Shown here in pieces: positions 1-60,320 of a stretch of DNA of 64,000 nt (the first letter of the stretch is position 1; every line of letters begins with the position of its first letter). This DNA is from Chloroflexota bacterium. GTDB taxonomy: Bacteria; Chloroflexota; Dehalococcoidia; Lucifugimonadales; UBA3495. The translations under genes and the position numbers were made by a program. The notes under the pieces were generated by a model. That model saw nothing but the letters and a program-made list of their open reading frames with translations, was not told the origin of the DNA and made no database searches. Location: NCBI GenBank assembly GCA_009840175.1, contig VXOI01000062.1:4727-68726 (forward strand). Direction: 5' to 3'.

Positions 1-1037
1 ACGCTGGCGCCCAGCTTATGGATATGGAGATGGTGCAGTACCATCCCACCACCCTTGCGGGCAGCGGCGTTTTGATTTCCGAGGCGGCTCGCGGCGAAGG
101 CGCCTACCTGCTGGACAAAGACGGCAATCGCTTCATGCAGAAGTACGCCCCCAACATGATGGAATTGGCCTCCCGCGATGTGGTTTCCCGCGCCGAGCAG
201 ACGGAAATAAACGCGGGCAACGGCATCAACGGCTGCGTGCTGCTGGACTGCCGTCACCTGGGCGAGTCCCTGATAATGGAGAAACTGAGCCAGATACGGG
301 AAATCGGCATTGACCTGATCGGCGTGGACATGATCAGGGAGCCCATTCCCATTCGCCCCGGAATGCACTACATAATGGGCGGCATCAAGACCGACGTGGA
401 CGGTTTGACCAATGTACCCGGCGTCTACGCAGCAGGAGAATGTGCCTGCGTCAGCGTGCACGGCGGCAACCGCCTGGGCGCCAACTCCCTGCTGGATACC
501 ATCGTTTTCGGCGAGCGCTCCGGGAATCACGCTGCCGAGGCATCGCGAGACGTTGACTATGTTGAATTCAACGTTGAGCAGGCGGTCAGGAACGAAGAGA
601 AGCGTATCCAGGAACTATTGGACCGCCCGGCAAACGGCGACCGCATTGCCAGCGTGCGCCTGGGTATGGGCGAGTCCATGAACCGCAATCTCGCCGTCTA
701 CCGCAACCAGGAAGGCATGGAGGAATCCCTGGGCGATTTGGAGCAGTTGCACGAGCGCTTCGAGACCGTGCCGGTGGAGAACAAGGGTAAGGTGTTCAAC
801 ACCGACCTGGTGTTCGCCCTCGAACTGGGCTTCATGCTGGACGTTGCGCCTTCCATTGTTGTTAGTGCCCTCGACCGTAAAGACAGCCGCGGCGCCCAGG
901 CCCGCACGGACTACCCAGACCGGGACGACGAAAACTGGATGAAGCATCTGGTTGTCAGAAAGGGCGAGACGGGACCGGATATCTCCTACGCGCCCGTAAG
1001 CATCACTAGGTGGGAGCCGGAAGAGAGGAAGTACTAG
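1..1037 (+). CDS. sdhA: succinate dehydrogenase/fumarate reductase flavoprotein subunit, C-terminal part (5' end outside window)
   Basis: The translation (..AGAQLMDMEMVQYHPTTLAGSGVLISEAARGEGAYL.., ..HGGNRLGANSLLD..) matches conserved SdhA/FrdA segments. The frame is open back to position 3. sdhB follows directly. Confidence 0.9.
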   Translation, partial: AGAQLMDMEMVQYHPTTLAGSGVLISEAARGEGAYLLDKDGNRFMQKYAPNMMELASRDVVSRAEQTEINAGNGINGCVLLDCRHLGESLIMEKLSQIREIGIDLIGVDMIREPIPIRPGMHYIMGGIKTDVDGLTNVPGVYAAGECACVSVHGGNRLGANSLLDTIVFGERSGNHAAEASRDVDYVEFNVEQAVRNEEKRIQELLDRPANGDRIASVRLGMGESMNRNLAVYRNQEGMEESLGDLEQLHERFETVPVENKGKVFNTDLVFALELGFMLDVAPSIVVSALDRKDSRGAQARTDYPDRDDENWMKHLVVRKGETGPDISYAPVSITRWEPEERKY

Positions 1038-28520: not shown

Positions 28521-28560
28521 TGGACTCTCCTGAATGTGTCGTATCCTGGGCAGGCAGTTC

Positions 28561-29802
28561 CTAACCCTGGAAGTTCACCCGTCCGTCCAGCAAGGCGCGG
28601 GCCATGACGAACTTGTGGATTTCCGACGTGCCGCCGCCGATACGGGCATGGCGAAGCAGGTGATACCAATGGGCTATCGGGAGGTCCAGGGTCTCGCCGG
28701 TTCCACCGAAGACCTGCATAATCTTGTCAATGCTGCGGCATCCCCACTCCCCGGCGCAATACTTGATCATGGAAGCCTCAACGCGCACATCGTCGCCAGC
28801 GTCGGCGCGGGCCGCGGTCTCGCGGGTGGCTGCCCGCAGGGTCATGATGTCAATGTAGACGTCGGTCAGCATCCACTGGATGGCCTGCCGGTCGGCGATG
28901 GGACGCCCGTAGGTGACCCGCTGTTTGGCCCAATCGATAGCCATTTCCAGGGCGCGGCTCAGGATACCGATGGCCATGGAGCCGCGCAGGAGGCGGTCGT
29001 GATGCACCAGCCATTTCTGGCCCAGGGTGAAGCCGCGCCCCACCTCGCCCAGCACCTTGGTCTGTGGGACGCGCACGTTGTCCAGATGGACAGTGTGCTG
29101 TTGGTTCTTGGTGGGGTTAATCCAGATGCGGATAGGCTCGAAGGACAGTCCGGGATTGGGGTTGTCCACGATGAACATGGTAATGCCGCCCCGCTGCCGC
29201 TTCTCCGGGTCGGTCACAGCCTGTACCAGAACGTAGTCGGCGCTGGCGGCCCCGGAGATGAAAGTCTTGGTGCCGTTCAACACCCAATCGTCGCCGTCCA
29301 GCTCGGCGCGGGTCTGCATCATGCCGCCTGGGTCGGAGCCGGCCTCCGGCTCTGTCTGTCCGAAGGCATAGTGCAACTCGCCCCGGATGGAAGGCAGCAG
29401 GTATTCCTGCTCCTGCTCGGGAGTGCAATTCCCGATCATCATCATCGGCACCGGCGAGGTGGGGAGCTGCACGATGCTCTTATGCACCTCTTCGTCCAGC
29501 ACTACGTGGCCCAGGGCGCCCATGCCGCCGCCCCCGTATTCCTCGGGAACGAAGGAGGTGTATATGCCCGTGTCCTTGGAAATCTGGTTCAGACGCGCCC
29601 ACTTCTCCGGGGAGAGCGTACCCAGAATTCCCTGGAGGGCCTCGGCGATGCCCCGGGGAGCGCCCGCGTCTTCCACTCCCTCCATCGTTGGATTCGCCAG
29701 GTACTCCGTCTCCAGCGGATAGCACTCGTCCTTGACTATCTGGCGGATGGTGAGTTTCAGAGCCTCGAGTTCCGGGGGCAGCCCTGCCTGCTCTGCGATC
29801 AT
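28561..29802 (-). CDS. acyl-CoA dehydrogenase family protein
   Basis: 413 aa. ..TEPEAGSDPGGM.. and ..GGTSEIHK.. are typical ACAD motifs. GGAGGAAAG lies upstream of the ATG. Confidence 0.85.
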   Translation of the reverse strand: MIAEQAGLPPELEALKLTIRQIVKDECYPLETEYLANPTMEGVEDAGAPRGIAEALQGILGTLSPEKWARLNQISKDTGIYTSFVPEEYGGGGMGALGHVVLDEEVHKSIVQLPTSPVPMMMIGNCTPEQEQEYLLPSIRGELHYAFGQTEPEAGSDPGGMMQTRAELDGDDWVLNGTKTFISGAASADYVLVQAVTDPEKRQRGGITMFIVDNPNPGLSFEPIRIWINPTKNQQHTVHLDNVRVPQTKVLGEVGRGFTLGQKWLVHHDRLLRGSMAIGILSRALEMAIDWAKQRVTYGRPIADRQAIQWMLTDVYIDIMTLRAATRETAARADAGDDVRVEASMIKYCAGEWGCRSIDKIMQVFGGTGETLDLPIAHWYHLLRHARIGGGTSEIHKFVMARALLDGRVNFQG

Positions 29803-29919
29803 AGTGTTCTTTCCTCCGGGAGCCTTCGTAAAACCTCTGCCTGGTTACAGATAATATGCGCGGCGGTTACGAATCGTTCCATCCGCGCACAAAAGGGTCA
29901 ACATCGAAAGGTATCGGTA

Positions 29920-30108
29920 TCAATGGAAGGGGCAGACGAACTTGAAGGTGGACACTGCCGCGTTGTCGCTCCCGTTCCGCGCTGGTTCCGCTGCCGAAGT
30001 AGACGCTGCCGTGGCATCCCGAGCCTCTCCCAAGGCGGAAAACCCGACGGCGATGACCGACAGGGTGAGCAATGCAATAACGGCGAAGGCGGCGACCCTG
30101 GCTTTCAT
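29920..30108 (-). CDS. hypothetical small secreted/membrane-anchored protein
   Basis: 62 aa with a hydrophobic N-terminus (MKARVAAFAVIALLTLSVIAVGF). There is no clear SD, and a hairpin follows downstream. Support is weak. Confidence 0.25.
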   Translation of the reverse strand: MKARVAAFAVIALLTLSVIAVGFSALGEARDATAASTSAAEPARNGSDNAAVSTFKFVCPFH

Positions 30109-30254
30109 AGATCTGGCGAGCCGAATTTAGCGGGTTTACTCCATCAACTTTGTTCAATTCTATAACGGGCCGCCATCTATTGCCACCATGAGGCAATTGT
30201 CGGCCACAGGGCAAGAAGCCCAATCGCGCAGATGGAATTTTGGATCCTAAGCCG

Positions 30255-35071: not shown

Positions 35072-35809
35072 GTGGATTGGGAAGGGGATCGGGCCGCAAC
35101 AGAAAGAGCGCTTCGTTTACGGGGCGCTCTTTTCGACTACAATCGCCTTTGCCATCTTCGCCTCTACGGGAATGTTGCTGTGCTGTTGATTGCCTTCCTG
35201 CTAATCCCTTTTATAGCCTTACTGGCTCAGGTCTTCGGGTGGCAGGCTGATTCCTTCGACCTGAATGACCCGGAGGCGGCCAGGGCCAAGTATGCGGATA
35301 TTACCGCCATCGAGAGTTTTTCGGAACAGGGGCGGGCCTGGTGCAGCCTGACGGAGCGGGAAGTGCGGGCGATAGCGAGGCACACCGAAATGTCGAACAT
35401 CGTGACGACCACCACCCATACCAGCAGCGCAGGCGAAGTGTCCACCAATGCCATTGTCGAGCCCGCGCCCAACCAGGATGAACTGGTGGAAGGGGCAGTG
35501 AAACAGACTTCTGATTCGTGCCGCTACAACGTCTGGGCCAACATTGAAAAACTGCAAACCGTTACGGACGAGGAAGGGTGGGCCGAGCTGTTGTGCCAGC
35601 TTACGCGGGAAGAAGCCACAACGCTTATCAGGTTCTTGAGTGTCGGCGGTTACACGGAAGTAATCGAAGTGGCCACAAGCTCTGATGGATCATCTACCGA
35701 GACTAAGGTAAGCAGACCGCCAGAGCGGGTTGACGAAAGCGACGTAGCCGCGGGGCTGGAAGAGTTATCAGCCGAATGTGGCTGGGAGGGCGGCCAGGAA
35801 AGGCCGTAG
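35072..35809 (+). CDS. hypothetical membrane-anchored protein with an internal duplication (start uncertain; GTG 35180 is plausible)
   Basis: The codon usage looks coding. It has a hydrophobic segment LLIAFLLIPFIALLAQVF and two similar blocks, RAWCSLTEREVRAIARH and GWAELLCQLTREEATTLIRF. The ORF-track start at 35072 overlaps the terminator hairpin, so the true start is probably downstream. I recognised no family. Confidence 0.4.
   Translation: MDWEGDRAATERALRLRGALFDYNRLCHLRLYGNVAVLLIAFLLIPFIALLAQVFGWQADSFDLNDPEAARAKYADITAIESFSEQGRAWCSLTEREVRAIARHTEMSNIVTTTTHTSSAGEVSTNAIVEPAPNQDELVEGAVKQTSDSCRYNVWANIEKLQTVTDEEGWAELLCQLTREEATTLIRFLSVGGYTEVIEVATSSDGSSTETKVSRPPERVDESDVAAGLEELSAECGWEGGQERP
35103..35133 (+). 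terminator. intrinsic terminator after the micro-ORF
   Basis: aaagagcgc / gcgctcttt is a 9-bp stem with a 12-nt loop, followed by a T-run (tttt). Confidence 0.55.
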
Positions 35810-35852: not shown

Positions 35853-37133
35853 ATGAGCGGACAAAGGGAATTCGTCGCCGATCTGCACATCCACTCCCGC
35901 TACGCCTATGCTTGCAGCAAGAACCTTACGCTGCCTAATCTGGCGGCCACGGCGAAGGTCAAAGGCATCGGGCTGCTGGCTACCGGAGACTTCACCCATC
36001 CGGCATGGCTGTCTGAACTGGAAGCCGGACTCACGCCAGTGGACGAGGGGACCTTCCGGTACGATGGCGTCAGCTTCGTTCTCGGCACAGAGATAAGTTG
36101 CGTTTACCGGCAGGGCGGCAGGGCGCGTCGTCTGCACCTGTTGCTGTTCCTGTCGTCGCTGGAATGCGTGAAGCGGTTCAACGCACAACTGGCGCAGCGA
36201 GGCGTCAAGCTGGAAGGGGACGGGCGCCCCTCGGTGGGACTGTCGGCCAGGGAACTGGGCTCCCTGGCGCTGGACATTGACCCGGAGGCGACGGTGATAC
36301 CGGCCCACGTCTGGACGCCGTGGTACGGATTGCTGGGGTCCGTGTCCGGCTTCGACAGTCTTGAGGAATGCTTCGGGGAGTTGACTCCGATGATCAGGGC
36401 GGTGGAAACGGGGCTTTCCAGCGACCCGGCCATGAACTGGAGCGTGCCTGATATGCAGGGGAAGGCCATCCTCTCATTTTCCGACGCCCACTCCCCGCCG
36501 AACCTGGGGCGGGAAGTTACCGTGTTCACAGGGAAGCCGACTTATGGCGGCCTCAAGGAAGCCGTGGAGCGAAACTCGGTCGCATATACGGTGGAATTTT
36601 ATCCCGAAGAAGGAAAATATCACTACAGCGGGCACAGGAACTGCGGAATCAGCCAGTCTCCGAGCGATACGGCGGTACAGGGAAGCGGTCTTTGCCCGGT
36701 CTGCGGACGCCCTCTGACCCTGGGAGTGCTGCACCGAGTCAATTCGCTGTCGACTGTGCCCGAGTCGGAAGAGAAACGTGAGCCGATGCCGGGAGCGGAT
36801 GGCTTTATTCGTCCGGTGGATGACCGTCCACCCTTCCTGCGGCTGGTTCCTCTGGAGGAACTGCTGGCGGAAACGCTGGGGGTGGGCCGACGCAGCAAGG
36901 CCGTAGCGAGCGCCTATCAGAAGCTGTGCGCCGAACTCGGCAGCGAGCTGGCGGTGCTGGCCTGGGCCGATGAGGCTGATATTCGGCGGGTGTCGGGTGA
37001 GCAGGTGGCGCAGGCCATTCTGAGGGCTCGCACCGGGCAGGTCGCGGTTGAGCCGGGATTCGACGGACAGTACGGGACGGTGCGGGTGTGGAGCCTATCG
37101 CAGGGCGATCCTCAGCAGGCAGCTCTGTTCTGA
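35853..37133 (+). CDS. endonuclease Q (PHP-domain, deaminated-base-specific endonuclease) homolog
   Basis: ..VADLHIHSRYA.., ..GTGDFTHPAW.., ..IPAHVWTPW.., ..SFSDAHSP..LGRE.., ..EGKYHYSGHRNC.. and a Zn-finger ..CPVCGRPLTLGVLHRV.., ending in ..GFDGQYGTVRV. These are colinear with archaeal EndoQ as I recall it. Confidence 0.75.
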   Translation: MSGQREFVADLHIHSRYAYACSKNLTLPNLAATAKVKGIGLLATGDFTHPAWLSELEAGLTPVDEGTFRYDGVSFVLGTEISCVYRQGGRARRLHLLLFLSSLECVKRFNAQLAQRGVKLEGDGRPSVGLSARELGSLALDIDPEATVIPAHVWTPWYGLLGSVSGFDSLEECFGELTPMIRAVETGLSSDPAMNWSVPDMQGKAILSFSDAHSPPNLGREVTVFTGKPTYGGLKEAVERNSVAYTVEFYPEEGKYHYSGHRNCGISQSPSDTAVQGSGLCPVCGRPLTLGVLHRVNSLSTVPESEEKREPMPGADGFIRPVDDRPPFLRLVPLEELLAETLGVGRRSKAVASAYQKLCAELGSELAVLAWADEADIRRVSGEQVAQAILRARTGQVAVEPGFDGQYGTVRVWSLSQGDPQQAALF

Positions 37134-37273: not shown

Positions 37274-37930
37274 GTGTATCTGCGCCGTCTGAAAAAAGAG
37301 GACATAACCGAGGTCGTCGAGATTGAGCGAGAGGCGTTCTCGCCGATCTGGACGAGTTCGCCCTTCAAGCGCGATATAAACAACAAGCGGGCTTGTTACC
37401 TTGTGGCCTGCATCGAAACCGATGACTCGGAACCCCTGCCGTTGGAACCCCTCCTAGAAGAAGAGGAAGTTGATGCGCCCCGTTCATGGCTGTCGCGTTT
37501 GGCGGAGCGGTTGGGGTTTGGCGGGAACGACTCGGAGGCACCGGAGAAAGACGACTACGCTATTGCCGGTTATGTCAGCGTCTGGTACCAGGGGGACGAG
37601 GCTCACATCGTCGAAATCGCCGTGCGGGAAACGTTGCGCGGCAACGGTATCGGCGAGTTGCTGCTCATCGGGTCGCTCCGGGCCGCCGTGGAATTTGGGT
37701 CCCACGTGATGACGCTGGAGGCCCGGGTGTCCAACTTCATTGCCCAGAGACTGTATGAAAAGTACAGCTTCAAGTCGGTGGGCATTCGCAAGGGATATTA
37801 CTCCGACAACCGGGAAGACGCGGTCATTATGACCACCACTCCGATTGATAGCGAAGAATATGGGCGAATGTTCCGGGAGCTTCAGGATACTTGGGAATCC
37901 CGATGGGGGCCGATTAACATTCAGGAGTGA
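37274..37930 (+). CDS. rimI: ribosomal-protein-alanine N-acetyltransferase (GNAT) with an acidic insertion
   Basis: ..EDITEVVEIEREAF.. and the acetyl-CoA motif ..RGNGIGELLL.., plus ..YEKYSFKSVGIRKGYY... It uses a GTG start. An Asp/Glu-rich insert of about 50 aa follows ..LVACIE. Confidence 0.7.
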   Translation: MYLRRLKKEDITEVVEIEREAFSPIWTSSPFKRDINNKRACYLVACIETDDSEPLPLEPLLEEEEVDAPRSWLSRLAERLGFGGNDSEAPEKDDYAIAGYVSVWYQGDEAHIVEIAVRETLRGNGIGELLLIGSLRAAVEFGSHVMTLEARVSNFIAQRLYEKYSFKSVGIRKGYYSDNREDAVIMTTTPIDSEEYGRMFRELQDTWESRWGPINIQE

Positions 37931-37976: not shown

Positions 37977-38005
37977 TTGACCATATTATGGGCGGTTGTT
38001 AGAAT
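37977..38005 (+). promoter_or_regulatory. sigma70-like promoter of the coaE / AAA+ / NUDIX / VWA operon
   Basis: TTGACC (37977..37982), a 17-nt spacer, then TAGAAT (38000..38005), 72 nt upstream of the coaE ATG. Confidence 0.55.
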
Positions 38006-38077
38006 GACGCTCATTGCGCCCTCTTGCCTGCTGTATCGTCCGGTTTCGGCTGGCAGTGAGGGCGATTCCGGGGGCGT

Positions 38078-38689
38078 ATGCTAGTCATCGGGCTGACCGG
38101 CGGTATTGGCACGGGCAAGAGCGAAGCCGCCAGACAAATGGTCTCGCTGGGAGCCGCGCTTATTGACGCCGACGTGGTGGGCCATGAAGCCTACACGCCC
38201 CACGCAGAGGCCTGGCGACAGGTGGTGGAAGCCTTCGGCGAGGGCATCCTGCAACCCAGCGGTGAAATTGACCGGCGCAGCCTGGGCGCTATCGTATTTT
38301 CGGACCCGGAGCAGTTGGCCAAGCTGAACGGCATCATGCACCCGCTCATGGCGCGGATGGTGAAGGAGAGGATCGAGGCTCTTGAGGCCGAGGGCGTAGA
38401 GGTGGTAGTGGTGGAGGCTGCCCTGCTTTTCGAGGCCGGATGGGATTCCTTGGTGCAGGAAGTCTGGGTGACCGATTCCTCTGAGGACGCGGTAATCCAT
38501 CGCCTTTCCCAGCGGAACGGAATGAGCGAGGAGGAGGCCCGGAAGCGGCTGGATTCGCAGATGAGCCGCCCCGAGCGGTTGGGCCGGGCCGATGTGGTGA
38601 TTGACAACTCCGGGGACGTTGCCGAAATGCGGGGAACGATCAGCGAGTTGTGGGAAACCAGAGTCAAAGAAAGGATTGAGCAGACATAA
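38078..38689 (+). CDS. coaE: dephospho-CoA kinase
   Basis: MLVIGLTGGIGTGKSEA.. is a P-loop, and ..IDADVVGHE.. is typical of CoaE. Its stop overlaps the next start (TAATG). Confidence 0.88.
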   Translation: MLVIGLTGGIGTGKSEAARQMVSLGAALIDADVVGHEAYTPHAEAWRQVVEAFGEGILQPSGEIDRRSLGAIVFSDPEQLAKLNGIMHPLMARMVKERIEALEAEGVEVVVVEAALLFEAGWDSLVQEVWVTDSSEDAVIHRLSQRNGMSEEEARKRLDSQMSRPERLGRADVVIDNSGDVAEMRGTISELWETRVKERIEQT

Positions 38690-39606
38690 TGGTTGAAGCC
38701 GTAGAGCAAGAACAACAACATTACAGCGAGTACGCGATTGAGGAGTTTCTGGTCAGGGCCGAACCGTACTACCGTGCGGTGGGCGACGAAATGGAGCTGT
38801 TCGCCGCGGCTTACCAACAGCACATTCCGGTGCTGCTCAAGGGGCCGACCGGCTGCGGCAAGACCCGTTTCGTGGAATATATGGCCTGGAAGCTGGGGCG
38901 CCCTCTGACCGTGATCCGAGAGCAGGAGAAGGCCTCCGGCGCAGCGCAGGAAGTTCGGGAAGGCGAGGTGCGTGTGCCCCTGGTCACCATCGCCTGCCAC
39001 GAGGACCTCACCGCCAGCGACTTGGTGGGCCGGTACTTGCTGGACGCGGAAGGCACCCGCTGGATTGACGGTCCAATGACCCGCGCGGTCAAAGCCGGCG
39101 CCATCCTGTACTTGGATGAGGTGGTGGAAGCCCGCAAGGACACCACGGTGCTGATACATCCCCTCACCGACCACCGCCGTATTCTTCCGGTGGAGAAGAC
39201 CGGCTCGATCATCGAGGCCGATGACCGGTTCCTGCTCTGCATCTCGTACAATCCCGGATACCAGAGCGCGCTGAAGGACCTGAAGCACAGCACGCGGCAG
39301 CGTTTCATCTCGATAGAGTTCTATTACCCGCCACGGGAAATCGAACGGGAGATTATTCAGCAGGAGGCCGGCTGCACCGAGGAGCAGGCCGACGCCTTGG
39401 CCAAGCTGGGCGAGAAGATTCGCAACCTCGAGGACCATGGCCTGCAGGAAGGAGCCAGCACACGGCTGCTCATCTATGCTGGACGGTTAATGTCCGAGGG
39501 CATCCCCGCCCGCCGCGCCTGCCAGGTCGCCATCGTCTGGACGCTGACCGACGACCCGGAGTTGCAGCGCAGCCTTGAGGAAGTGGCCTCCTCGATATTC
39601 GAGTAG
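38689..39606 (+). CDS. CbbQ/NirQ/NorQ/GpvN-family MoxR-like AAA+ ATPase
   Basis: ..EPYYRAVGDEMELF..VLLKGPTGCGKTRFVEYMAWKLGRPL.., ..ACHEDLTASDLVGRYLL.., ..LYLDEVVEARKDTTVLIHPLTDHRRILPVEK.. and ..ISYNPGYQS..KDLKHSTRQRF.. are near-colinear with CbbQ as I recall it. Confidence 0.85.
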   Translation: MVEAVEQEQQHYSEYAIEEFLVRAEPYYRAVGDEMELFAAAYQQHIPVLLKGPTGCGKTRFVEYMAWKLGRPLTVIREQEKASGAAQEVREGEVRVPLVTIACHEDLTASDLVGRYLLDAEGTRWIDGPMTRAVKAGAILYLDEVVEARKDTTVLIHPLTDHRRILPVEKTGSIIEADDRFLLCISYNPGYQSALKDLKHSTRQRFISIEFYYPPREIEREIIQQEAGCTEEQADALAKLGEKIRNLEDHGLQEGASTRLLIYAGRLMSEGIPARRACQVAIVWTLTDDPELQRSLEEVASSIFE

Positions 39607-39664
39607 GTCATTGGAATCAGGGCATCTTGGAACGGGAGCGTAAGCAGTCCTGACGCCGCCGGAA

Positions 39665-40246
39665 TTGATCAAGCGGGCGCTGGCAGACCGGCCCACCGAG
39701 AGGGTGGCCGGGGATGATCTGACGCCCGCCGCCGTCATGGTGCTGCTGTATCCCAAGGACGGCGACTACTGCGTGCTGCTCAACAAGCGTTCCCAGGAAG
39801 TCGAACACCACAAAGGGGAGATCTCCTTTCCCGGCGGCGCCACCGACCCCGAAGACCGAGACTCCCTGGATACTGCCCTCCGCGAGACCGAGGAGGAAAT
39901 GGGGATTCACCGGGACGACATTACCGTCCTAGGCGAGATGGACGAGGTGGCGACCCGCTCCCGTTTTCGAGTCAACGTATTCGCTGGCACCCTTCGGCAA
40001 GCTCAGGGCCACCCTTACGAGTTCCGTCCCAGCGCTGACGAGATAGCGGAAATCGTGGAATTCCCGGTCAGCGCCCTGCGAGACCCTGCCAGCGTTCGAG
40101 TAGAAACTCACTGGCAGGACGGCGCTCCTTCCACGGTCTACTCATACGCCTACGACAAGCACTTGGTTTTCGGCGCAACTGCCAGAATCCTCCAGCAATT
40201 CCTGCAGCTCTTGGAGAATGGGCTGGAAAGCGAGGGTCACAATTGA
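39665..40246 (+). CDS. NUDIX hydrolase, CoA pyrophosphatase (NudL/NUDT7-like) type
   Basis: ..VLLNKRSQEVEHHKGEISFPGGATDPEDRDSLDTALRETEEEMGI.. has the NUDIX box with NudL-like spacing, plus a partial match to the CoA motif upstream of FPGG. TTG start. A 4-nt overlap (TTGA) links it to the next gene. Confidence 0.7.
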   Translation: MIKRALADRPTERVAGDDLTPAAVMVLLYPKDGDYCVLLNKRSQEVEHHKGEISFPGGATDPEDRDSLDTALRETEEEMGIHRDDITVLGEMDEVATRSRFRVNVFAGTLRQAQGHPYEFRPSADEIAEIVEFPVSALRDPASVRVETHWQDGAPSTVYSYAYDKHLVFGATARILQQFLQLLENGLESEGHN

Positions 40247-43200
40247 CGAGTAGCGCTCCACAACCCGAAATCGAACAGGAACTGGCCAAACTTCCCCCCG
40301 CCGTATTGGAAGCCTATCAAGAGGCTGTCGGTCCGGTGAAGGAGGCTTTCGGCCCGGACGAAGTAAGCCTCTGGGCCAAGGAGGGAGTCTCCATAGGCTC
40401 CCAGACCATCCGCTCATGGGAAGCGGCCATCGAGTATTACAAGGTCAGCCCCCATGTCTGCCGGTTCCTTTCTTTCCCGTCCTTCATGCAGTGGGCCCGC
40501 TGCGGCACTTACCTGGCGCAGGACTCCCCCACGCTGGCGGTGTCGTTCTTCAAGTCCAGCGTGGCTATCGTCCCCAACCTTCGCCCACAGTACATACCCC
40601 GCTGGGCCGGCTTGGGACGCAGCCTGTACAAGGGCACCTGGAAGTCCAGCACCCTGGCCGCGAAGTTCTTCGAGGTTTCACCGGAGCTGGTGCGCAGCCT
40701 TCCCTTCTGGGACGTTGAGGTGTTCGCCTCGCTGATAGAGGCCCTTTCGTACAAGTCCTACGACGTTGCCAGCGAGTGCCTTACGCTGGGCAAGGACGTG
40801 CTGCCCGGCATGGGACGGGAGCGGGAGCCGTTCCTGGCGATGACCCGCGCCTTGATTGACACCAGTTGGAGGGAGGTCAAGACTTGCTTGGAACTGGTGC
40901 CCCGCGCCCTCCAGCACGTGGACGAAGCCCAGACGGGCCGCTTCCTCAAGCTGGGCGAGCGGCTGGCCAAGGTGGGGCTGCGCGACACATCCCGCTTCCT
41001 GGCCGACGGCACCCAGGCGCTGGGCCGTGTGCCCCAGGGCAACCAGGGCTACATCCTTGACCTTTGCGACCAGCTGGTGGCCGTGGCCCCGGAGGCCGTT
41101 CCCCCCTTCCTGCGGAGCCTCGACAGCGTTCTCACGCGGATAACCGTCAGCCAGCTCGACACCTGGTACCAGCATGGGATGCGGCTGTTGCAGGAGAACC
41201 CGGAGAGCGGCATCGCCTTCTTCAAGATCGAGTCAAACACTTCGGAGCAGATGCTGGAGACCCTCTCATCCAGCCTGGAGCTTGACCGCGTGAAGGGCAT
41301 CATTCGCCTGTACTGCCGGGCATTGTCCGGGGCGGGCGTGGAAATCATGAGCACCCAGGAACTGGTGCGGCGCAACATCGGCTGGGTGGAGGAAGACACG
41401 GCATCTACAGACGGCTCCAAGGTGTTCCTGCCGCCGGTGGTTGACCGGTATTTCAACAAGCAGGACAACTTCTCATGGTTCAAGGTGGTGTCCACCCACC
41501 AGATAAGCCGCCTGGAATTCGGCAGCTTTGAGTTCCAGTTCGACAAACCGGCTACGCAGTTTGACGACCGCCGCCATGCCATGGAAGAGGAAATCAATGC
41601 CAGGAAGGCGGAGGAACTGGCGGCGCGTCAGGCGATGATCGAGATGGCCCGGGAAATGGCCGGGGGCGAGGCCGATGTGGAGGTTTCGTTCGTTGAGATG
41701 CGGCCGGACGGTTCTTCCTCGGCGATGCAAGGCCCGGTGCCGGATAGCCCCGGCTCCATGCGGGCCTACACCGACATCGGTCGGTTCCTGTCCATGTTCG
41801 AGAACGGCAAGCTGGCCTTCGACCTGTTCACCGTTCTGGAAGACGGCCGACTGGACTATCGCATAAATGTGGAGTACCCCGGCATTCGCCGGGCCGCTTC
41901 CCGCGTGCAGCAGGACGCCCTGGAAGGCCGCCCTCCCATCGAGCAGATGCCCCTCCAGCAGGCAATGGTTGAGTTGCTCGTTCACATGAGCTTGGAGCGG
42001 TTCACTGCTCCTGTGCCGGAGGAATACGAAGAGGTCGCGGTGATGCTCTCCCGCATCCTGCACAACCTGCGCACTATCGAGGCCAACGTGGAAGACACCG
42101 CCGAGGCCACCCTGAGAGCCTACGAAATCATCTCCCGCCTGCCCAACCAGCAGGAGGAAGAGGACCAGTGGGACGAGCAGGACCTGGAGGAACCCGGCGA
42201 CTTCAACGAGGAAGAGTTCCAGGACCTCGTAGACCGCCTTCAAGCCGATATGGATCAGCGCGGCGAAGGTCAGGAAGGCGACGATTCCTACGAATCGCCG
42301 GAGCCGGTGGACTATCGCGGCGACTTCAAGCCGGAGATGGTGCAGTTGTTGACCCGTCTCCAGGCCGACAGCAGCGACCAGGACGGCGAGGCCCAGCCCA
42401 TGACCCAGGAGATGCTGGAACAGCTTCTCCAGGACAGCGACGAGCTGGAGCTGGACGCCGAGCAGGGCGACATAACCGACGCCATGACCACCTTCGCCCA
42501 GAACATAATGAAAGAGGCGGGCGCGCCGCCGCCCAACTCCCAGCCCGGCCAGGGCTATGGCCCGCTGCTCAACGACGACGAGCAGGGCGGCGAGTTGGAG
42601 GCCCGGGAGCCGCAGACGTTCCTGTACGACGAGTGGGACTTCCGCGCCAACGACTACAAGCCCCGCTGGTGCATCGTCAAAGAAAAGACGGTTGAAGAAG
42701 GCGACATAAACTTCTACCAGGACGCCCTGAAGAACTACTCGTCGCTTTCCAACCACATCCGGCGCCAGTTCGAGCTGATAATGCCGGAGAGTATGCGCAA
42801 GACCTACCGGCTCATTGACGGCGAAGACCTGGACCTCAACGCGACGCTGGAGGCCTGGGTTGACCTGAAGATGAACATCCCGCCGGACGACAAAATTTAC
42901 TGGCACCGCAATCGCAACCGCCGCGACGTGGCCGTGGTGTTCCTGCTGGACATGAGCGCCTCCACTGCCGAGGCCATTGATGAGGGCCGCCAGATGGTGG
43001 ATGACCGCGACGCGCCCGACGATCCGGTGGAGTACATGGTCTGGCTGCGCCGACGCCGCGAGGGGCTGGTGCGCCGCAACTACAAGCGCATCATCGACCT
43101 AGAGAAGGAAAGCACGGCGCTGCTGGTGAACGCTCTGGAGTCCATCGGCGACACCTACGGCATCTACGGCTTCTCCGGCTATGGCCGGGAAAACGTCGAG

Positions 43201-43629
43201 TTCTATGTGATCAAGGACATCAACGAAAACTTCGGCGACAAGGTCAAGCGGCGGATTGACAAGATCACGCCGCTCCACGCCACCCGCATGGGCGCGGCCA
43301 TCCGCCACGCCATCACCAAGCTGGAAAACCAGGACGCGCACACCAAGATAATGTTCCTGGTCAGCGACGGGCGGCCCCAGGACCGGGGCTACAGCCGCGA
43401 GGGCGTGGAGAAGGAGTACGCCGTCCACGACACCCACATGGCGCTGGTGGAAGCCCGCCAGAAGTCCATCACGCCGTTCTGCCTGACGGTAGACAAGGCG
43501 GGCCATGACTACCTGAAGAGTATGTGCGGCGACATGGGCTACGAGGTCCTGGGCGAAATCTGGTCCCTGCCCGAGCGCCTGCCCATGCTCTACCGCGAGC
43601 TGACGGCGCGGAGGTTCGCGCGACGGTAG
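40243..43629 (+). CDS. CbbO/NorD-like von Willebrand factor A protein, unusually large (1128 aa)
   Basis: ..LELDRVKGIIRLYCRALSG.., ..TDGSKVFLPP.., ..FKVVSTHQISRLEFGSFEF.. and ..YDEWDFRANDYKPRWCIVKE.., with a C-terminal VWA carrying MIDAS DMSAS (..VVFLLDMSASTAE.., ..LVSDGRPQD..). These are all CbbO/NorD hallmarks. Confidence 0.8.
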   Translation: MTSSAPQPEIEQELAKLPPAVLEAYQEAVGPVKEAFGPDEVSLWAKEGVSIGSQTIRSWEAAIEYYKVSPHVCRFLSFPSFMQWARCGTYLAQDSPTLAVSFFKSSVAIVPNLRPQYIPRWAGLGRSLYKGTWKSSTLAAKFFEVSPELVRSLPFWDVEVFASLIEALSYKSYDVASECLTLGKDVLPGMGREREPFLAMTRALIDTSWREVKTCLELVPRALQHVDEAQTGRFLKLGERLAKVGLRDTSRFLADGTQALGRVPQGNQGYILDLCDQLVAVAPEAVPPFLRSLDSVLTRITVSQLDTWYQHGMRLLQENPESGIAFFKIESNTSEQMLETLSSSLELDRVKGIIRLYCRALSGAGVEIMSTQELVRRNIGWVEEDTASTDGSKVFLPPVVDRYFNKQDNFSWFKVVSTHQISRLEFGSFEFQFDKPATQFDDRRHAMEEEINARKAEELAARQAMIEMAREMAGGEADVEVSFVEMRPDGSSSAMQGPVPDSPGSMRAYTDIGRFLSMFENGKLAFDLFTVLEDGRLDYRINVEYPGIRRAASRVQQDALEGRPPIEQMPLQQAMVELLVHMSLERFTAPVPEEYEEVAVMLSRILHNLRTIEANVEDTAEATLRAYEIISRLPNQQEEEDQWDEQDLEEPGDFNEEEFQDLVDRLQADMDQRGEGQEGDDSYESPEPVDYRGDFKPEMVQLLTRLQADSSDQDGEAQPMTQEMLEQLLQDSDELELDAEQGDITDAMTTFAQNIMKEAGAPPPNSQPGQGYGPLLNDDEQGGELEAREPQTFLYDEWDFRANDYKPRWCIVKEKTVEEGDINFYQDALKNYSSLSNHIRRQFELIMPESMRKTYRLIDGEDLDLNATLEAWVDLKMNIPPDDKIYWHRNRNRRDVAVVFLLDMSASTAEAIDEGRQMVDDRDAPDDPVEYMVWLRRRREGLVRRNYKRIIDLEKESTALLVNALESIGDTYGIYGFSGYGRENVEFYVIKDINENFGDKVKRRIDKITPLHATRMGAAIRHAITKLENQDAHTKIMFLVSDGRPQDRGYSREGVEKEYAVHDTHMALVEARQKSITPFCLTVDKAGHDYLKSMCGDMGYEVLGEIWSLPERLPMLYRELTARRFARR

Positions 43630-43664
43630 ACATGCCCCGACAACGGCAAATCACTGGCAGCAAG

Positions 43665-43694
43665 AAGCCCGCTCCTATGATTCGGGGCGGGCTT
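43665..43694 (+). terminator. candidate terminator after the VWA gene
   Basis: aagcccgc / gcgggctt is an 8-bp stem with a 14-nt loop. The T-tail is weak. Confidence 0.35.
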
Positions 43695-43819
43695 ATTGGT
43701 GTCATCATTCCGGCTTCGTTTGGTTTTGGAACATACGGGGCATCCCTGCGCCTCATAATCCAAAAACGCGCGGGACCCCTAGGTGGTCTGTTGCCGTTCC
43801 AAAGTAGCCTTTCAATGTC

Positions 43820-44977
43820 TCACAGAGCAATAACTCGGCTCAGAAACTCTTGGGCAGCCTGATCATCAATTTGTGAATCAGGATTCTCGATAAGCTCGTT
43901 TATCGCCTTCCCTTCAAATTGGGATACACCCCTCGAGTTTCGTCCAGCCCAGTGTCTCAAAAGAATTGTAGCCTTGAGCAGATCCCTCTGGAACATGGAT
44001 ACTAGGACAGTATTTACGATTTTACCAGGGTCTATGCCAACAAAATAGAACATCAATACAGACCTGGAATTTGCAAGAAATTCCAGCATTTTGTCCAAGT
44101 TATACGCTTTGGGGTTGGAACTCAGGATCATTACCTTTGTTTTGACGTCAGTTTCCGTGTCAAAGAGATTGAAATTTCTTCGATAGTCCCCCAAGGTGTT
44201 ATCCGTTCTGAACTGAGGTAGGCCAGGAGTGTCCGATTTCAGAGCAGCAATAAGACTCTGGCGAAGCGCCTCATCCTCTCCAGCAATCAGGTATTCTATT
44301 ACTCGTCCACGAACATTAACATTGTCAATGAGAGCTGCTAAAAGAATCTCCTTCTTGAACTCCTCAACTTTGTAGTCGAGTTCAGATTTTAGCGTGTGCG
44401 CTTCGGAAGACGCGACGAAACGGATGGCTCTATCTGGGGCCTCAAGTATGGCCTGACGTTCGCTATCACCTACGGTAAACTTGCTCCCAGATGGAGAGAT
44501 GTTGTTTGTCGCCTCCACGAGTCGCGCTAAGTTGCCTTCGAAACCGATTTCAGCATGGATGTCATACAGTCGCCTGATGTTTTCTGTGGAATTAGAGATA
44601 CCTTCAAAAGCTCTGACGATATCGGACCCATTGAAACTTCCCCTGATATTGTTCTCTCTGAGCTCTTGTGAGCTGTGGCTTATTTTCCTCAAGAAGGTTG
44701 TGTTCGCAATGAGACAGAAGTTTCTGACCGGAGTGACGAGACAGACGATGAATGGGCGATCGTCATACTTACGTAGATTAGATAGCGAGAGAACTGTATT
44801 CCCAAAATTAGGACGAGCTGACGAGCTGAAGCGAATCGCGTACTCGCGACAATAAAAAACGGACCGATCTTTGATTAGGCGAAACTCCCTACAAATGAGT
44901 TGAGCCAAAAGGTCTTTGTCATTTATTCCATCGTTTTCATGGATGAGTTCAAAAAGAGACTTAAGAGGATCTGTCAT
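43820..44977 (-). CDS. putative type II restriction endonuclease (family not recognised)
   Basis: 385 aa and AT-rich. It overlaps the 3' end of the upstream methyltransferase gene by 17 nt. A possible PD-(D/E)xK-like ..FDTETDVKTK.. is present. The functional call rests mainly on context. Confidence 0.5.
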   Translation of the reverse strand: MTDPLKSLFELIHENDGINDKDLLAQLICREFRLIKDRSVFYCREYAIRFSSSARPNFGNTVLSLSNLRKYDDRPFIVCLVTPVRNFCLIANTTFLRKISHSSQELRENNIRGSFNGSDIVRAFEGISNSTENIRRLYDIHAEIGFEGNLARLVEATNNISPSGSKFTVGDSERQAILEAPDRAIRFVASSEAHTLKSELDYKVEEFKKEILLAALIDNVNVRGRVIEYLIAGEDEALRQSLIAALKSDTPGLPQFRTDNTLGDYRRNFNLFDTETDVKTKVMILSSNPKAYNLDKMLEFLANSRSVLMFYFVGIDPGKIVNTVLVSMFQRDLLKATILLRHWAGRNSRGVSQFEGKAINELIENPDSQIDDQAAQEFLSRVIAL

Positions 44978-45956
44978 CGAAGAACTCCATCATAGATTCC
45001 ATCGACACTTCGTTTCTAAGGGGCTTTTGGCCCTTCATGCTATTTCGTTCCCAAAATACGCCATCCCGATATCCTTGAATGCTTGGGTCAGTATCCGCTT
45101 TATCTAGACGCTTCAGCGCCCAGCAGCAATACTCGCGGTTAAGTTCTATGCCACAGAAATTTCGTTGGAGCTTCTTGGCAACCACGGCTGTTGTTCCGCT
45201 CCCCAGAAATGGGTCAAATACGAAATCTTGCGGATTGGAACTGGCAAGAACTAACTTGGCGAATAGTTTTTCTGGCTTTTGCGTGGGGTGATCGGTATTT
45301 TCAGGCATCGACCAGAAAGGAATTGTTATATCTGACCACAGGTTAGATGGGTGTGTAAGTCTGTATTTCCCGATGCTGGTCTCATTCCAATCCTTTGGTT
45401 TCCCGTCCTCTCGACGATATGGCGCGAGAACCCGCCTCTTTAGCTTCACAGCATCAACATTGAAGGTATATTCCTCACTAACGGTACAAAACCAAATATC
45501 CTCGGTGTTGTTTTTCCAATTGACTTTAGCTCCTCGCCCCTTCTCCCGCTCCCATGTGATTCGGTTCCTGACTCGTAAATGTCTGTCTAGGATGGGATAG
45601 ATCAGCGTCGAAGATTGCCAATCACTGCAAACGTAAACCGTCGCTGTGCGACGCAACAGAGGGACTGTGAGGGACAGGAGTTCGTCGAACCAAGAGGCAT
45701 AGGATTCCGCGTCTTGGGCTCGAAACACATTCCCATTGAAATCCTTTGTCAGATTGTAAGGCGGATCGAGAATTAACAGGTCGACGAAAGAATCTGGGAG
45801 AAAGGGACAGGCAAACTGAAAGTCTTGATTGATGACCCTGCCTCGAAGCAACTCAGTTGTCGCCGGCTGTGATAATTCGAGGAGATGAGTGGACAGAGCA
45901 GTCTCCTCCTCTATCGTGCATCTCAAAGTCCTATTTCGTGGGGCACGCTTGTTCAT
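44961..45956 (-). CDS. site-specific DNA methyltransferase, beta-class (N6-adenine or N4-cytosine)
   Basis: Motif IV ..LILDPPYNL.. precedes the AdoMet motif I ..FDPFLGSGTTAVVAKKL..GIELN.., which is the beta-class order. An AAGGAA SD lies before the ATG. Confidence 0.85.
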   Translation of the reverse strand: MNKRAPRNRTLRCTIEEETALSTHLLELSQPATTELLRGRVINQDFQFACPFLPDSFVDLLILDPPYNLTKDFNGNVFRAQDAESYASWFDELLSLTVPLLRRTATVYVCSDWQSSTLIYPILDRHLRVRNRITWEREKGRGAKVNWKNNTEDIWFCTVSEEYTFNVDAVKLKRRVLAPYRREDGKPKDWNETSIGKYRLTHPSNLWSDITIPFWSMPENTDHPTQKPEKLFAKLVLASSNPQDFVFDPFLGSGTTAVVAKKLQRNFCGIELNREYCCWALKRLDKADTDPSIQGYRDGVFWERNSMKGQKPLRNEVSMESMMEFFDDRSS

Positions 45957-59424: not shown

Positions 59425-60320
59425 ATTTCGTAAACAGCGAACAGAGAGATAGCCCGCGCCTTTCTCGCGCCAATGACAGGCGGGCGACTTTCAACTTTGC
59501 AGGCGGTTGCAGGAAGCTGGCGTTGGCGTTCCTGTTTGGGGTGTTGGCGGCGCTGGCGGCGTGTACGTCCGACTCTGCAACCTTCGGCCAGTATTTCCAG
59601 GGACGGACATTGCACGTCAGCGTGGTCAGCCTGGAGCAGGTGCCTGAGCTTCGCTACTCAACCATCGACCCCAACCAGGTTGTTCGCCAGTGGAGCCTGT
59701 CGCCCTCGACGCCAGGCAACGAACTGGTGCTGGCGCGGCTCAAGGTGGAAAACCACACCGCGGTCAGCGCTATCATCAACATTGACCGCTCCGCCGCAGA
59801 GCTGAGGGACTTTTCCAACTCCAGCTATCGGCCTCTGACGGTGTCTCAAACGGTCTGGCAGGATTTCCGAGGAGAATCGGAAGCCTTGGTGCGAATGGAT
59901 CTGGGCCAGTGCTTCGACGGCACTCGCGCCCTGATAGACCCGGGAACCACGGTGCGCTGGCAAAGTGAAGCCGAAATGGATCAGTATGTGGCCTTTGGGG
60001 ACGCTGCCGTCGGAGTCGGGCCCGGCGGCCGGGCTGAACTTGCCCCCGGGACGTCGCTCTCACATACCTTCAGCCAGCCTGGAAACTATTCATACGTGTG
60101 CGGCGGAGGTACCCCCCCCGAATTCCCTGCGGAGGTTCGGGTGGCCCCGGGCGAGGAGCCGGACGATGCCGCAGTCCGCTCGGTGCAGTTCCTGGAAGGC
60201 TCCTTCGAGTTGCTGAGAGGCCACGGACTGGATGGCTACATGGTCTTTGAAGTACCGGCAGGCACCGAGTTTCGTGACCTGCGCTGGCGGGCCGGCGACT
60301 CCGTCACCATCCGCTTCTAG
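59421..60320 (+). CDS. hypothetical lipoprotein with a cupredoxin-like C-terminal motif
   Basis: It has a lipobox ..LAALAAC.. and a C-terminal ..[16 protein letters not shown].. that resembles a cupredoxin loop but lacks the distal His/Met. The start is uncertain (TTG). Confidence 0.45.

What the first reader, a model, noticed from the sequence alone, without database searches (positions are those of the whole stretch)
37977..43629. Orphan CbbQ/CbbO-type AAA+/VWA remodeller operon fused to CoA metabolism (coaE, Q, CoA-type NUDIX, giant O)
Seen in sequence:
- One strong promoter (TTGACC-17-TAGAAT) precedes four tightly packed genes.
- coaE's stop overlaps the AAA+ start (TAATG).
- The NUDIX stop overlaps the VWA start (TTGA).
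- A hairpin follows the VWA gene.

The AAA+ is colinear with CbbQ/NorQ. The 1128-aa protein carries the CbbO/NorD hallmarks (YDEWDFR..WCIVKE and a C-terminal MIDAS VWA).

Established knowledge: Q/O(D) pairs are dedicated remodellers. CbbQO is a Rubisco activase that releases inhibitory sugar phosphates. NorQD matures NO reductase. Both are normally encoded next to their client. No Rubisco, NOR or other known client is in this window.

Instead, the pair brackets a NudL/NUDT7-like NUDIX and follows dephospho-CoA kinase.

Inference: this may be a 'release and destroy' module. The AAA+/VWA pair would strip a tightly bound CoA-type nucleotide or inhibitor from an unknown enzyme, and the NUDIX would hydrolyse it. 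This parallels Rubisco activase working with the XuBP phosphatase CbbY. I know of no description of such a Q-NUDIX-O arrangement.
Basis: partly seen in the sequence, partly recalled or inferred. Interest (0 to 1): 0.75.

Follow-up and report, generated by a model that had tools for sequence, protein, structure and literature searches.

The report
CoA-linked giant CbbQO-type remodeller operon
Marine SAR202 bacteria keep a four-gene operon that joins the last enzyme of coenzyme A synthesis and a CoA-cleaving hydrolase to an oversized relative of the Rubisco and NO-reductase "repair motor". This points to an undescribed client for that motor, possibly in CoA metabolism, but the client is still unknown.

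Summary
The four + strand genes are coaE, a CbbQ/NorQ-type AAA+ (Q), a CoA-type NUDIX and a 1128-aa CbbO/NorD-type VWA protein (O). They form one operon with overlapping stop/start codons. A promoter upstream of coaE is conserved in 53 of 78 related loci.

The order coaE-Q-NUDIX-O is kept in every SAR202/Dehalococcoidia species representative with enough flanking DNA (73 complete loci, no counter-example), down to 43% O identity and about 30% NUDIX identity.

O belongs to a large "giant-O" family. Its body resembles CbbO/NorD, and it carries an extra ~345-residue helical-repeat solenoid at the N-terminus. Outside SAR202 the pair is usually a bare Q-O with no shared neighbour. In Candidatus Tectomicrobia the order is (PHP)-Q-O-coaE. 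The SAR202 and Tectomicrobia O clades are not sisters (bootstrap 99/100).

coaE is therefore the only recurrent partner, and the NUDIX is a SAR202-only addition.

I conclude that this is a new variant of the CbbQO/NorQD remodeller with an unknown client, plausibly tied to CoA metabolism. The specific "release and destroy" mechanism is untested and only weakly supported.

The parts
37977..38005 (+). Sigma-70-type promoter: -35 TTGACC, 17-nt spacer, extended -10 TTGTTAGAAT
   Evidence: scores it 10/12 with a TG extension. In one search a TTGACN-16..18-TANNWT match lies upstream of coaE in 53 of 78 SAR202 loci; in the examples printed the hexamers are conserved and the spacers differ.
38078..38689 (+). 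coaE, dephospho-CoA kinase (203 aa). P-loop GGIGTGKS at 38099-38122.
   Evidence: PF01121 7e-55. TIGR00152 scores 171.5 bits against a cut-off of 65.55. PDB CoaE matches reach 2e-41.
38689..39606 (+). Q: CbbQ/NorQ-type MoxR AAA+ ATPase (305 aa). Walker A GPTGCGKT at 38842-38865. Walker B ILYLDE at 39103-39120. Variable loop insert, residues 74-96, at 38908-38976.
   Evidence: AAA_5 plus CbbQ_C. CbbQ 5c3c 1e-102 and NorQ 9qhd 2e-86. The loop is variable in all giant-O-linked Qs.
39665..40246 (+). CoA-type NUDIX hydrolase (193 aa). NuCoA-like motif LLNKRS...FPGG at 39776-39838. Nudix box at 39833-39904.
   Evidence: NF007980 CoA pyrophosphatase 1e-26, below cut-off. PDB 1nqy 3e-18, AtNUDT11 and NUDT7. 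In SAR202 orthologues the NuCoA-like motif is kept in 70 of 81 and the Nudix box in 77 of 81.
40243..41277 (+). O residues 1-345: N-terminal all-alpha solenoid of 4-6 repeats of ~38 aa (W-x3-G ... A-x2-FF-x2-SP). This part is absent from the CbbO-sized relatives.
   Evidence: AF2 pLDDT is about 90 and the region is all helices. Repeat HMM. The short ~690-790-aa relatives align only from about residue 340. Foldseek matches only designed helical repeats.
41278..42162 (+). O residues 346-640: conserved mixed alpha/beta middle domain. It is shared with the short forms and probably corresponds to the NorD/CbbO N-terminal, Q-binding region.
   Evidence: Invariant residues include N409, K414, H419, Q420, E533, R536, D538 and others. 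A weak alignment links O 345-383 to NorD 36-76. Confidently folded.
42163..42612 (+). O residues 641-790: acidic linker (29% D+E), helical in its first half and of low model confidence mainly from about residue 710
   Evidence: pLDDT varies by block (about 84-91 for residues 641-670, 63-85 for 671-700, 31-72 for 701-790; below 50 at 712-716, 738-742 and 761-787). Composition. It corresponds in position to the functionally essential NorD linker (PMC13036017).
42613..43629 (+). O residues 791-1128: YDEWDFR/WCIVKE beta-hairpin module followed by a VWA domain with a complete MIDAS (D903, S905, S907, T1014, D1042)
   Evidence: NorD 9qhd_G 2e-34 by sequence. Foldseek NorD VWA 1.4e-14 with TM 0.74, and midasin MIDAS 4e-6. 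Invariant columns.
43655..43704 (+). Terminator-like inverted repeat downstream of O
   Evidence: 21-nt arms, 81% complementary, 8-nt loop. The T tail is weak, and the stricter terminator scan did not call it.

Best explanation
This is a conserved SAR202 operon. It couples CoA turnover genes to a distinct 'giant-O' branch of the CbbQO/NorQD family of MoxR-AAA+/VWA remodellers. The CoA genes are coaE (the last step of CoA synthesis) and a CoA-type NUDIX pyrophosphatase.

Shown:
- One promoter drives four genes, with translationally coupled junctions.
- Q has intact Walker A and B motifs and is about as close to CbbQ as CbbQ is to NorQ.
- O has a complete MIDAS VWA domain structurally like NorD's, a conserved middle domain, an acidic linker, and an extra N-terminal helical-repeat solenoid.
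- coaE is linked to giant-O pairs in two unrelated phyla, in two different gene orders.

Inferred by analogy with CbbQO and NorQD:
- One O binds a Q hexamer.
- O's MIDAS, together with the extra solenoid, grips an acidic surface of a client protein.
- ATP hydrolysis by Q twists or stretches O's linker and so remodels the client.

Inferred from gene linkage only:
- The client, or the process served, involves CoA or 3'-phospho-ADP nucleotides. It could be CoaE itself or a CoA-binding enzyme.
- In SAR202 the NUDIX adds a lineage-specific CoA-cleaving step.
- The 'strip a CoA-type inhibitor, then hydrolyse it' scheme is one possible version of this, and not the best supported.
For: - Operon anatomy and promoter.
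- Family assignments.
- coaE-Q-NUDIX-O is found in 73 loci with complete flanks, plus 9 truncated but consistent loci. There is no counter-example among 80 SAR202 species representatives, with O identity 43-94%.
- Overlapping junctions are common across the clade.
- The NUDIX keeps CoA-type motifs.
- Q-O-coaE, usually preceded by a PHP gene, is conserved in Candidatus Tectomicrobia/Entotheonellaceae and relatives at 50-93% O identity.
- The SAR202 clade groups with plain Q-O lineages to the exclusion of the Tectomicrobia clade in 99 of 100 bootstraps. The two are sisters in 4 of 100.
- The AF2 model has pLDDT 79. Foldseek matches the NorD VWA domain.
- Mechanistic precedents: PMC4660213 and PMC13036017.
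Against: - Most giant-O lineages are bare Q-O pairs, without coaE, NUDIX or any shared neighbour. One has O alone.
- The NUDIX is confined to SAR202.
- O has no recognisable CoA- or nucleotide-binding module.
- coaE is a housekeeping gene that often sits in mixed operons, so the linkage may only secure constitutive expression.
- The two coaE proteins are fairly similar (46% identity). An old block transfer followed by rearrangement is therefore not excluded.
- The NUDIX scores below the NCBIfam equivalog cut-off.
- The Tectomicrobia PHP protein has no assignable specificity.
Confidence: 0.45

Rival explanations
1. Operon hitch-hiking. Q/O is a dedicated remodeller or metal-insertion chaperone for a client encoded elsewhere and unrelated to CoA. 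On this reading coaE and the NUDIX are merely co-transcribed housekeeping passengers, which gives Q/O constitutive expression.
For: - Bare Q-O pairs with heterogeneous neighbours dominate outside SAR202 and Tectomicrobia.
- The window neighbourhood is housekeeping: groEL, EndoQ, rimI, CinA.
- In a few SAR202 loci the operon tolerates unrelated insertions between Q and NUDIX: a PhnB-like gene, and an R-M/PIN cassette.
Against: - The same housekeeping gene, coaE, is immediately adjacent in two non-sister clades from different phyla, in different orders. My rough estimate for this arising by chance is about 1%.
- The coaE-Q and NUDIX-O stop/start overlaps are kept across deep divergence.
- The NUDIX sits between Q and O rather than at an operon edge.
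Confidence: 0.3
2. CoaE itself is the client. Canonical Q/O(D) pairs are encoded next to their client. By that rule, the giant-O complex would remodel dephospho-CoA kinase, for example by releasing tightly bound product or changing its oligomeric state.
For: - coaE is the only recurrent neighbour.
- In the window it is translationally coupled to Q; a coaE-stop/Q-start overlap is seen in 34 of 78 SAR202 loci. In Tectomicrobia it lies 12-35 nt downstream of O.
- The client-adjacency rule for CbbQO and NorQD is stated in PMC4660213 and PMC5437159.
Against: - CoaE here is an ordinary 203-aa P-loop kinase. It has no extension or unusual feature compared with solved CoaEs.
- No metal centre or known dead-end complex calls for a remodeller.
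- Most giant-O lineages do not have coaE nearby.
Confidence: 0.12
3. Release and destroy. Q/O strips a tightly bound CoA-type inhibitor from an unknown enzyme and the NUDIX hydrolyses it. This would parallel Rubisco activase working with CbbY.
For: - The Q-NUDIX-O insertion and the CoA-type motifs are conserved across SAR202.
- coaE linkage.
Against: - The NUDIX is absent from all non-SAR202 giant-O lineages and from the sister groups of the SAR202 clade. The core machine therefore works without it.
- No candidate inhibited enzyme has been identified.
- No direct evidence exists.
Confidence: 0.1
4. An ordinary Rubisco activase or NOR maturation factor serving a cbbL/cbbM or norCB locus elsewhere in the genome.
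For: - High similarity of Q to CbbQ and NorQ.
- Public sources label relatives 'NorD'.
Against: - O forms a separate family with an extra 345-residue domain.
- The pair is universal in 80 SAR202 species representatives. To my knowledge SAR202 is largely heterotrophic; the papers I read neither confirm nor contradict this.
- The pair also occurs in Spirochaetota and Desulfobacterales, with no such client nearby.
- No Rubisco or NOR is in the window.
Confidence: 0.03

Closest known systems
CbbQ-CbbO Rubisco activase (Acidithiobacillus, Halothiobacillus; PDB 5c3c, 6l1q)
   Same: - The AAA+ motor is of the same subfamily (AAA_5 plus CbbQ_C; 5c3c at 1e-102).
[quoted passage not shown]
- A Q6O1 adaptor-motor logic is expected.
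   Different: - No Rubisco lies nearby.
- O is about 350 residues longer, because of an N-terminal helical-repeat solenoid.
- A NUDIX gene is inserted between Q and O.
- The operon is headed by coaE.
- Q carries a variable loop after the Walker A strand.
NorQ-NorD, Fe(B)-insertion chaperone of cNOR (PDB 9qh4-9qhg; PMC13036017)
   Same: - The VWA domain matches by sequence (2e-34) and by structure (Foldseek 1.4e-14, TM 0.74).
- An acidic, flexible linker lies between the N-terminal part and the VWA domain, as in NorD, where the linker is essential.
   Different: - There is no nor operon.
- Only the last ~340 residues align significantly.
- The N-terminal 790 residues are unrelated or only faintly related.
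- The client is unknown.
CoA pyrophosphatases of the Nudix family (D. radiodurans DR1184 1nqy, E. coli NudL, mammalian NUDT7, Arabidopsis NUDT11)
   Same: - The NuCoA-type motif lies upstream of the Nudix box.
- The Nudix box has the NUDT7-like spacing.
- These are the best PDB hits.
   Different: - The score is below the NCBIfam equivalog cut-off.
- The gene sits between an AAA+ gene and its VWA partner, a context I did not find described.
Other MoxR/VWA pairs: RavA-ViaA, CoxD-CoxE, CobS-CobT
   Same: The general principle is the same: a MoxR AAA+ hexamer works with a VWA adaptor to remodel or metallate a dedicated client.
   Different: These belong to different MoxR subfamilies and their adaptors have different architectures. 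None is reported in an operon with coaE or a NUDIX.

Membership tests
CbbQ/NorQ-type MoxR AAA+ (CGN subfamily) | AAA_5 ATPase core plus the CbbQ_C lid domain | tested here: met
   PF07728 4.8e-27 and PF08406 1.9e-30. 5c3c 1e-102 and 9qhd 2e-86.
CbbQ/NorQ-type MoxR AAA+ (CGN subfamily) | Intact Walker A and Walker B motifs | tested here: met
   GPTGCGKT at residues 52-59. ILYLDE at residues 139-144, read from the alignment. The two P-loop-region cysteines, C56 and C103, are also present.
CbbQ/NorQ-type MoxR AAA+ (CGN subfamily) | Encoded with a VWA partner | tested here: met
   O lies 636 nt downstream in the same operon, with the NUDIX in between. Q and O are directly adjacent in most relatives.
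CbbO (Rubisco activase adaptor) | [quoted passage not shown] | tested here: met
   D903, S905, S907, T1014 and D1042 are invariant.
CbbO (Rubisco activase adaptor) | About 770 aa, encoded downstream of cbbQ in a Rubisco operon | tested here: not met
   O is 1128 aa with an extra solenoid. No Rubisco is in the 64-kb window or in the 170 related loci, none of whose conserved or recurrent neighbour families is Rubisco.
CbbO (Rubisco activase adaptor) | Activates inhibited Rubisco | not testable with these tools
   This needs biochemistry.
NorD (cNOR maturation) | VWA domain with a pore-inserting finger, and a C-terminus that binds NorQ | tested here: inconclusive
   The VWA fold matches NorD VWA chains that include the finger. 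I did not map the finger residue by residue. O has a 28-residue insert after the first MIDAS loop relative to NorD.
NorD (cNOR maturation) | Encoded in a norCBQD-type cluster and required for Fe(B) insertion | tested here: not met
   No nor genes are in the window or in any related locus. The rest of the genome was not searchable.
CoA pyrophosphatase (NudL/NUDT7-type Nudix) | Nudix box plus the upstream NuCoA motif (LLTxRSx3Rx3Gx3FPGG) | tested here: met
   LLNKRSQEVEHHKGEISFPGG and GGATDPEDRDSLDTALRETEEEMG. There is one deviation: E at the R/K position, where DR1184 has P. Conserved in 70 of 81 and 77 of 81 orthologues respectively.
CoA pyrophosphatase (NudL/NUDT7-type Nudix) | Scores above the curated equivalog cut-off | tested here: not met
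   NF007980 scores 93.8 bits against a cut-off of 134.
CoA pyrophosphatase (NudL/NUDT7-type Nudix) | Hydrolyses CoA or acyl-CoA to 3',5'-ADP plus 4'-phosphopantetheine | not testable with these tools
   This needs an enzyme assay.
Dephospho-CoA kinase CoaE | Scores above the TIGR00152 equivalog cut-off and has a P-loop | tested here: met
   171.5 bits against 65.55. GGIGTGKS.

The most novel reading that the evidence does not exclude
Giant-O/Q pairs are a third functional class of CbbQ-type MoxR/VWA remodellers, besides Rubisco activation and cNOR metallation. Their client would lie in coenzyme A metabolism, either CoaE itself or a CoA-binding enzyme that becomes trapped in a dead-end nucleotide complex. 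On this reading, the abundant deep-ocean SAR202 lineage has built a complete make/repair/destroy CoA module (coaE-Q-NUDIX-O) around the pair.
Probability: 0.3. Interest if true: 0.8.

Novelty: new variant of a known kind. Interest (0 to 1): 0.6.

Why it matters
CbbQO and NorQD are the only members of this motor/adaptor family with known clients, and both were found because the client is encoded next door.

Here a large, deep family is universal in SAR202 and is also present in Tectomicrobia, Desulfobacterales, Spirochaetota and probably Actinomycetota. The representative search for the whole O protein returned 1,368 clusters at 50% identity below 1e-30; that count also includes shorter, CbbO-sized relatives and may include canonical CbbO/NorD. 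The giant forms have an added client-binding-like solenoid and no known client.

The only recurrent genomic partner is the last enzyme of CoA synthesis. That gives a concrete, testable entry point to a new client class for MoxR/VWA remodellers.

It also hints that CoA handling in organisms with very large acyl-CoA enzyme repertoires may need ATP-driven enzyme repair or regulation.

Tried and rejected
- **Defence system.** PADLOC gave no hits for O, NUDIX or CoaE, and only marginal P-loop-level hits for Q. The adjacent R-M island is a strain-specific insertion.
- **A PHP/pAp-phosphatase theme linking the window to Tectomicrobia.** The window's upstream 426-aa protein is an Endonuclease Q homologue (5zb8, 2e-56), not a nucleotide phosphatase. 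The Tectomicrobia PHP protein passes only the generic CehA/McbA metallohydrolase domain model. Its resemblance to 3',5'-bisphosphate nucleotidase is weak and limited to the N-terminus. I dropped this as evidence.
- **CoA enzymes as recurrent neighbours of plain Q-O pairs.** Two of the first three loci suggested this. A survey of 106 neighbour proteins from plain Q-O loci showed ECH in only 3, and no dominant family. Rejected.
- **The Q loop insert (residues 74-96) as a SAR202-specific feature.** It is a variable loop in all giant-O-linked Qs.
- **Structural clue from the N-terminal 790 residues.** Foldseek against PDB matched only designed helical repeats.
- **Rfam and tRNA scans of the window.** Nothing found.
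- **Literature.** No paper in the held library combines coaE, dephospho-CoA kinase or CoA pyrophosphatase with NorQ, CbbQ or MoxR in a relevant way.

Full report
**1. Observation**

The region holds four + strand ORFs:
- coaE, 38078-38689
- an AAA+ gene (Q), 38689-39606
- a NUDIX gene, 39665-40246
- a 1128-aa gene (O), 40243-43629

The coaE stop shares a base with the Q start (TAATG), and the NUDIX stop overlaps the O start by 4 nt. The promoter-like site TTGACC-17-TAGAAT at 37977-38005 is the best in the region, at 10/12 with a TG extension. An imperfect hairpin follows O at 43655-43704, with 21-nt arms that are 81% complementary.

Family scans confirm each assignment:
- CoaE passes the curated equivalog cut-off.
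- Q has AAA_5 plus CbbQ_C. It matches the CbbQ crystal structure 5c3c at 1e-102 and NorQ at 2e-86.
- The NUDIX is closest to CoA pyrophosphatases: NF007980 at 1e-26, which is below the cut-off, then 1nqy at 3e-18, Arabidopsis NUDT11 and NUDT7.
- O matches NorD only over residues 793-1121, at 2e-34.

The rest of the window is housekeeping: succinate dehydrogenase, MDH, IDH, ThrRS, the riboflavin operon, RF, SelA, GroEL, an Endonuclease Q homologue, RimI-like GNAT, PTE, CinA and ABC transporters. There is no Rubisco or NOR.

**2. Is it conserved?**

O has 585 word-sharing homologues. The best 120 are 74-99% identical and come from marine Chloroflexota/Dehalococcoidia.

A scan of one genome per GTDB species returned 80 loci. 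All were Dehalococcoidia or SAR202-type MAGs, with O identity 43-94%. By tblastn, every one with enough upstream DNA has coaE-Q-NUDIX-O in that order. Over all loci fetched, that is 73 with complete flanks and 9 truncated but consistent, with no counter-example. NUDIX identity falls to about 30% and coaE to about 37% while the order persists.

Further signs of selection on the operon:
- A TTGACN-16..18-TANNWT match lies within 260 nt upstream of coaE in 53 of 78 loci; in the 25 examples printed it is TTGACC with an (often TTGn-extended) TAGAAT-type -10 and variable spacers, which is a phylogenetic footprint.
- Overlapping coaE/Q junctions occur in 34 of 78 loci, and overlapping NUDIX/O junctions in 40 of 78.
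- The NUDIX orthologues keep the NuCoA-type motif in 70 of 81 cases and the Nudix box in 77 of 81.

**3. The wider family**

An exhaustive profile-free search of 1.84 billion representatives found 4,138 relatives, 1,368 of them below 1e-30. These fall into two classes:
- Many are full-length proteins of about 1000-1100 aa at 28-50% identity.
- A second class of about 690-790 aa aligns only from O residue ~340 onward. Its members come from Actinomycetota and are labelled NorD by their sources.

Giant-O proteins also occur in Spirochaetota, in Desulfobacterales and in other lineages known only from metagenomes. In those lineages Q is directly followed by O, with no NUDIX and no coaE. Their neighbours are heterogeneous. 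In a survey of 106 neighbour proteins, the top families were transporters, histidine kinases and MBL-fold proteins, and ECH appeared in only 3.

A separate lineage turned out to be Candidatus Tectomicrobia/Entotheonellaceae and relatives. It has (PHP)-Q-O-coaE-RNase PH, conserved from 50 to 93% O identity.

On an NJ tree of the C-terminal 620 residues, the SAR202 clade groups with plain Q-O lineages (L120, L130, L132) and with the short forms. The Tectomicrobia clade sits in the other major branch. The SAR202 plus L132-group clade excludes all Tectomicrobia sequences in 99 of 100 bootstraps, and the two coaE-linked clades are sisters in only 4 of 100.

The sister lineages have Q adjacent to O (L172) or O alone (L171). 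Two conclusions follow:
- coaE is the only recurrent partner. It was either recruited twice, or it is ancestral and was repeatedly lost.
- The NUDIX is an innovation of the SAR202 clade.

**4. Anatomy of O**

An AF2 model built from a 54-sequence alignment has mean pLDDT 79 and pTM 0.60. It divides as follows:
- **Residues 1-345:** an all-alpha solenoid at pLDDT about 90. It is built from 4-6 repeats of ~38 aa with the signature W-x3-G...A-x2-FF-x2-SP, and it is missing from the short forms.
- **Residues 346-640:** a conserved mixed alpha/beta domain. Its start aligns weakly with NorD residues 36-76.
- **Residues 641-790:** an acidic linker with 29% D+E; model confidence is mixed and falls below 50 mainly from about residue 710.
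- **Residues 791-1128:** the YDEWD/WC beta-hairpin and the VWA domain, with invariant MIDAS residues.

Foldseek against PDB matches only the VWA part: NorD VWA at 1.4e-14 with TM 0.74, then midasin MIDAS. The solenoid resembles only designed repeat proteins.

The published models for CbbQO (MIDAS binds an acidic client residue; Q6O1 stoichiometry) and for NorQD (finger in the pore; a linker stretched by ATP-driven rotation) supply the likely mechanics.

**5. Interpretation**

The most defensible reading is that this is a new variant of the CbbQO/NorQD remodeller with an unknown client. Its genomic linkage to coaE in two phyla, and to a CoA-type NUDIX in SAR202, suggests a role connected to CoA metabolism. 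I put this at about 0.45.

The rivals are:
- Co-transcription with housekeeping genes and no functional link (0.3).
- CoaE itself as the client (0.12).
- Service to a distant Rubisco or NOR (0.03).

The release-and-destroy scheme is weakened because the machine exists widely without the NUDIX.

A defence role is unlikely: there were no PADLOC hits.

**6. Novelty**

Orphan CbbQ/CbbO-like pairs are known to exist (PMC5437159). I found no description of the giant-O architecture, of the Q-NUDIX-O arrangement, or of any coaE linkage in the held literature.

**7. Limits**

- The trees are NJ trees, and the choice of outgroup is arbitrary.
- A block transfer of coaE together with Q and O, followed by rearrangement, is not excluded. 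The two coaE proteins are 46% identical.
- The host genomes could not be searched for Rubisco or NOR.
- No biochemical property has been tested.

Noticed in passing
window 43820-45956 (- strand): A type II restriction-modification pair sits in a low-GC island: REase_II at 1.6e-152 plus an N6/N4 DNA methyltransferase, at 46% GC against about 61% for the window. It lies between O and the PTE gene. In the closest relative, L004, O is followed directly by PTE, so this looks like a recent strain-specific insertion.
   Followed up: partly
window 35853-37133 (+): A bacterial homologue of Endonuclease Q (PDB 5zb8, 2e-56; TIGR00375 family). It is conserved upstream (EndoQ, RimI-like GNAT, coaE) in the closer SAR202 clade only. 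EndoQ is mostly known from archaea.
   Followed up: partly
L167-L170, and L105-L129 (Tectomicrobia-type loci): A PHP/PHP_C metallohydrolase gene of the CehA/McbA type lies immediately upstream of Q. It overlaps or abuts the Q start in the (PHP)-Q-O-coaE-RNase PH operon. Its specificity is unknown, and only its N-terminus weakly resembles 3',5'-bisphosphate nucleotidases.
   Followed up: partly
L170 8001-11310: In one 4.6-Mb assembly the O gene is called as two overlapping ORFs of 881 and 235 aa. This is either a frameshift or pseudogene, or a sequencing error.
   Followed up: no
window 38908-38976 (Q residues 74-96): A low-complexity loop is inserted right after the Walker A strand, relative to CbbQ and NorQ. 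Its length varies across the Qs paired with giant-O proteins examined; it is longest in SAR202.
   Followed up: yes
L030, L031, L058 and L072 (~570-nt gap) and L054 (2.7-kb gap), between Q and NUDIX: In L030 a PhnB-like gene (PF06983) is inserted between Q and the NUDIX; L031, L058 and L072 have the same ~570-nt gap but their ORFs were not examined. L054 carries a methyltransferase/Mrr fusion plus a PIN gene there. The operon tolerates insertions at this junction.
   Followed up: yes
window 37274-37930 (+): The RimI-like GNAT matches the rimI model only over residues 94-186. It has an acidic insertion of about 90 residues in its N-terminal half.
   Followed up: no
window 28534-30165 (+), 59421-60320 (+), 60389-61048 (+), 35072-35809 (+): These sizeable ORFs have no Pfam family at E <= 1e-4 (35072-35809 at E <= 0.01). 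Some may be high-GC shadow ORFs rather than genes.
   Followed up: no
L171 8001-11336: A giant-O gene with no adjacent Q, in a polysaccharide-biosynthesis neighbourhood. Q is presumably encoded elsewhere, or the adaptor works alone.
   Followed up: no
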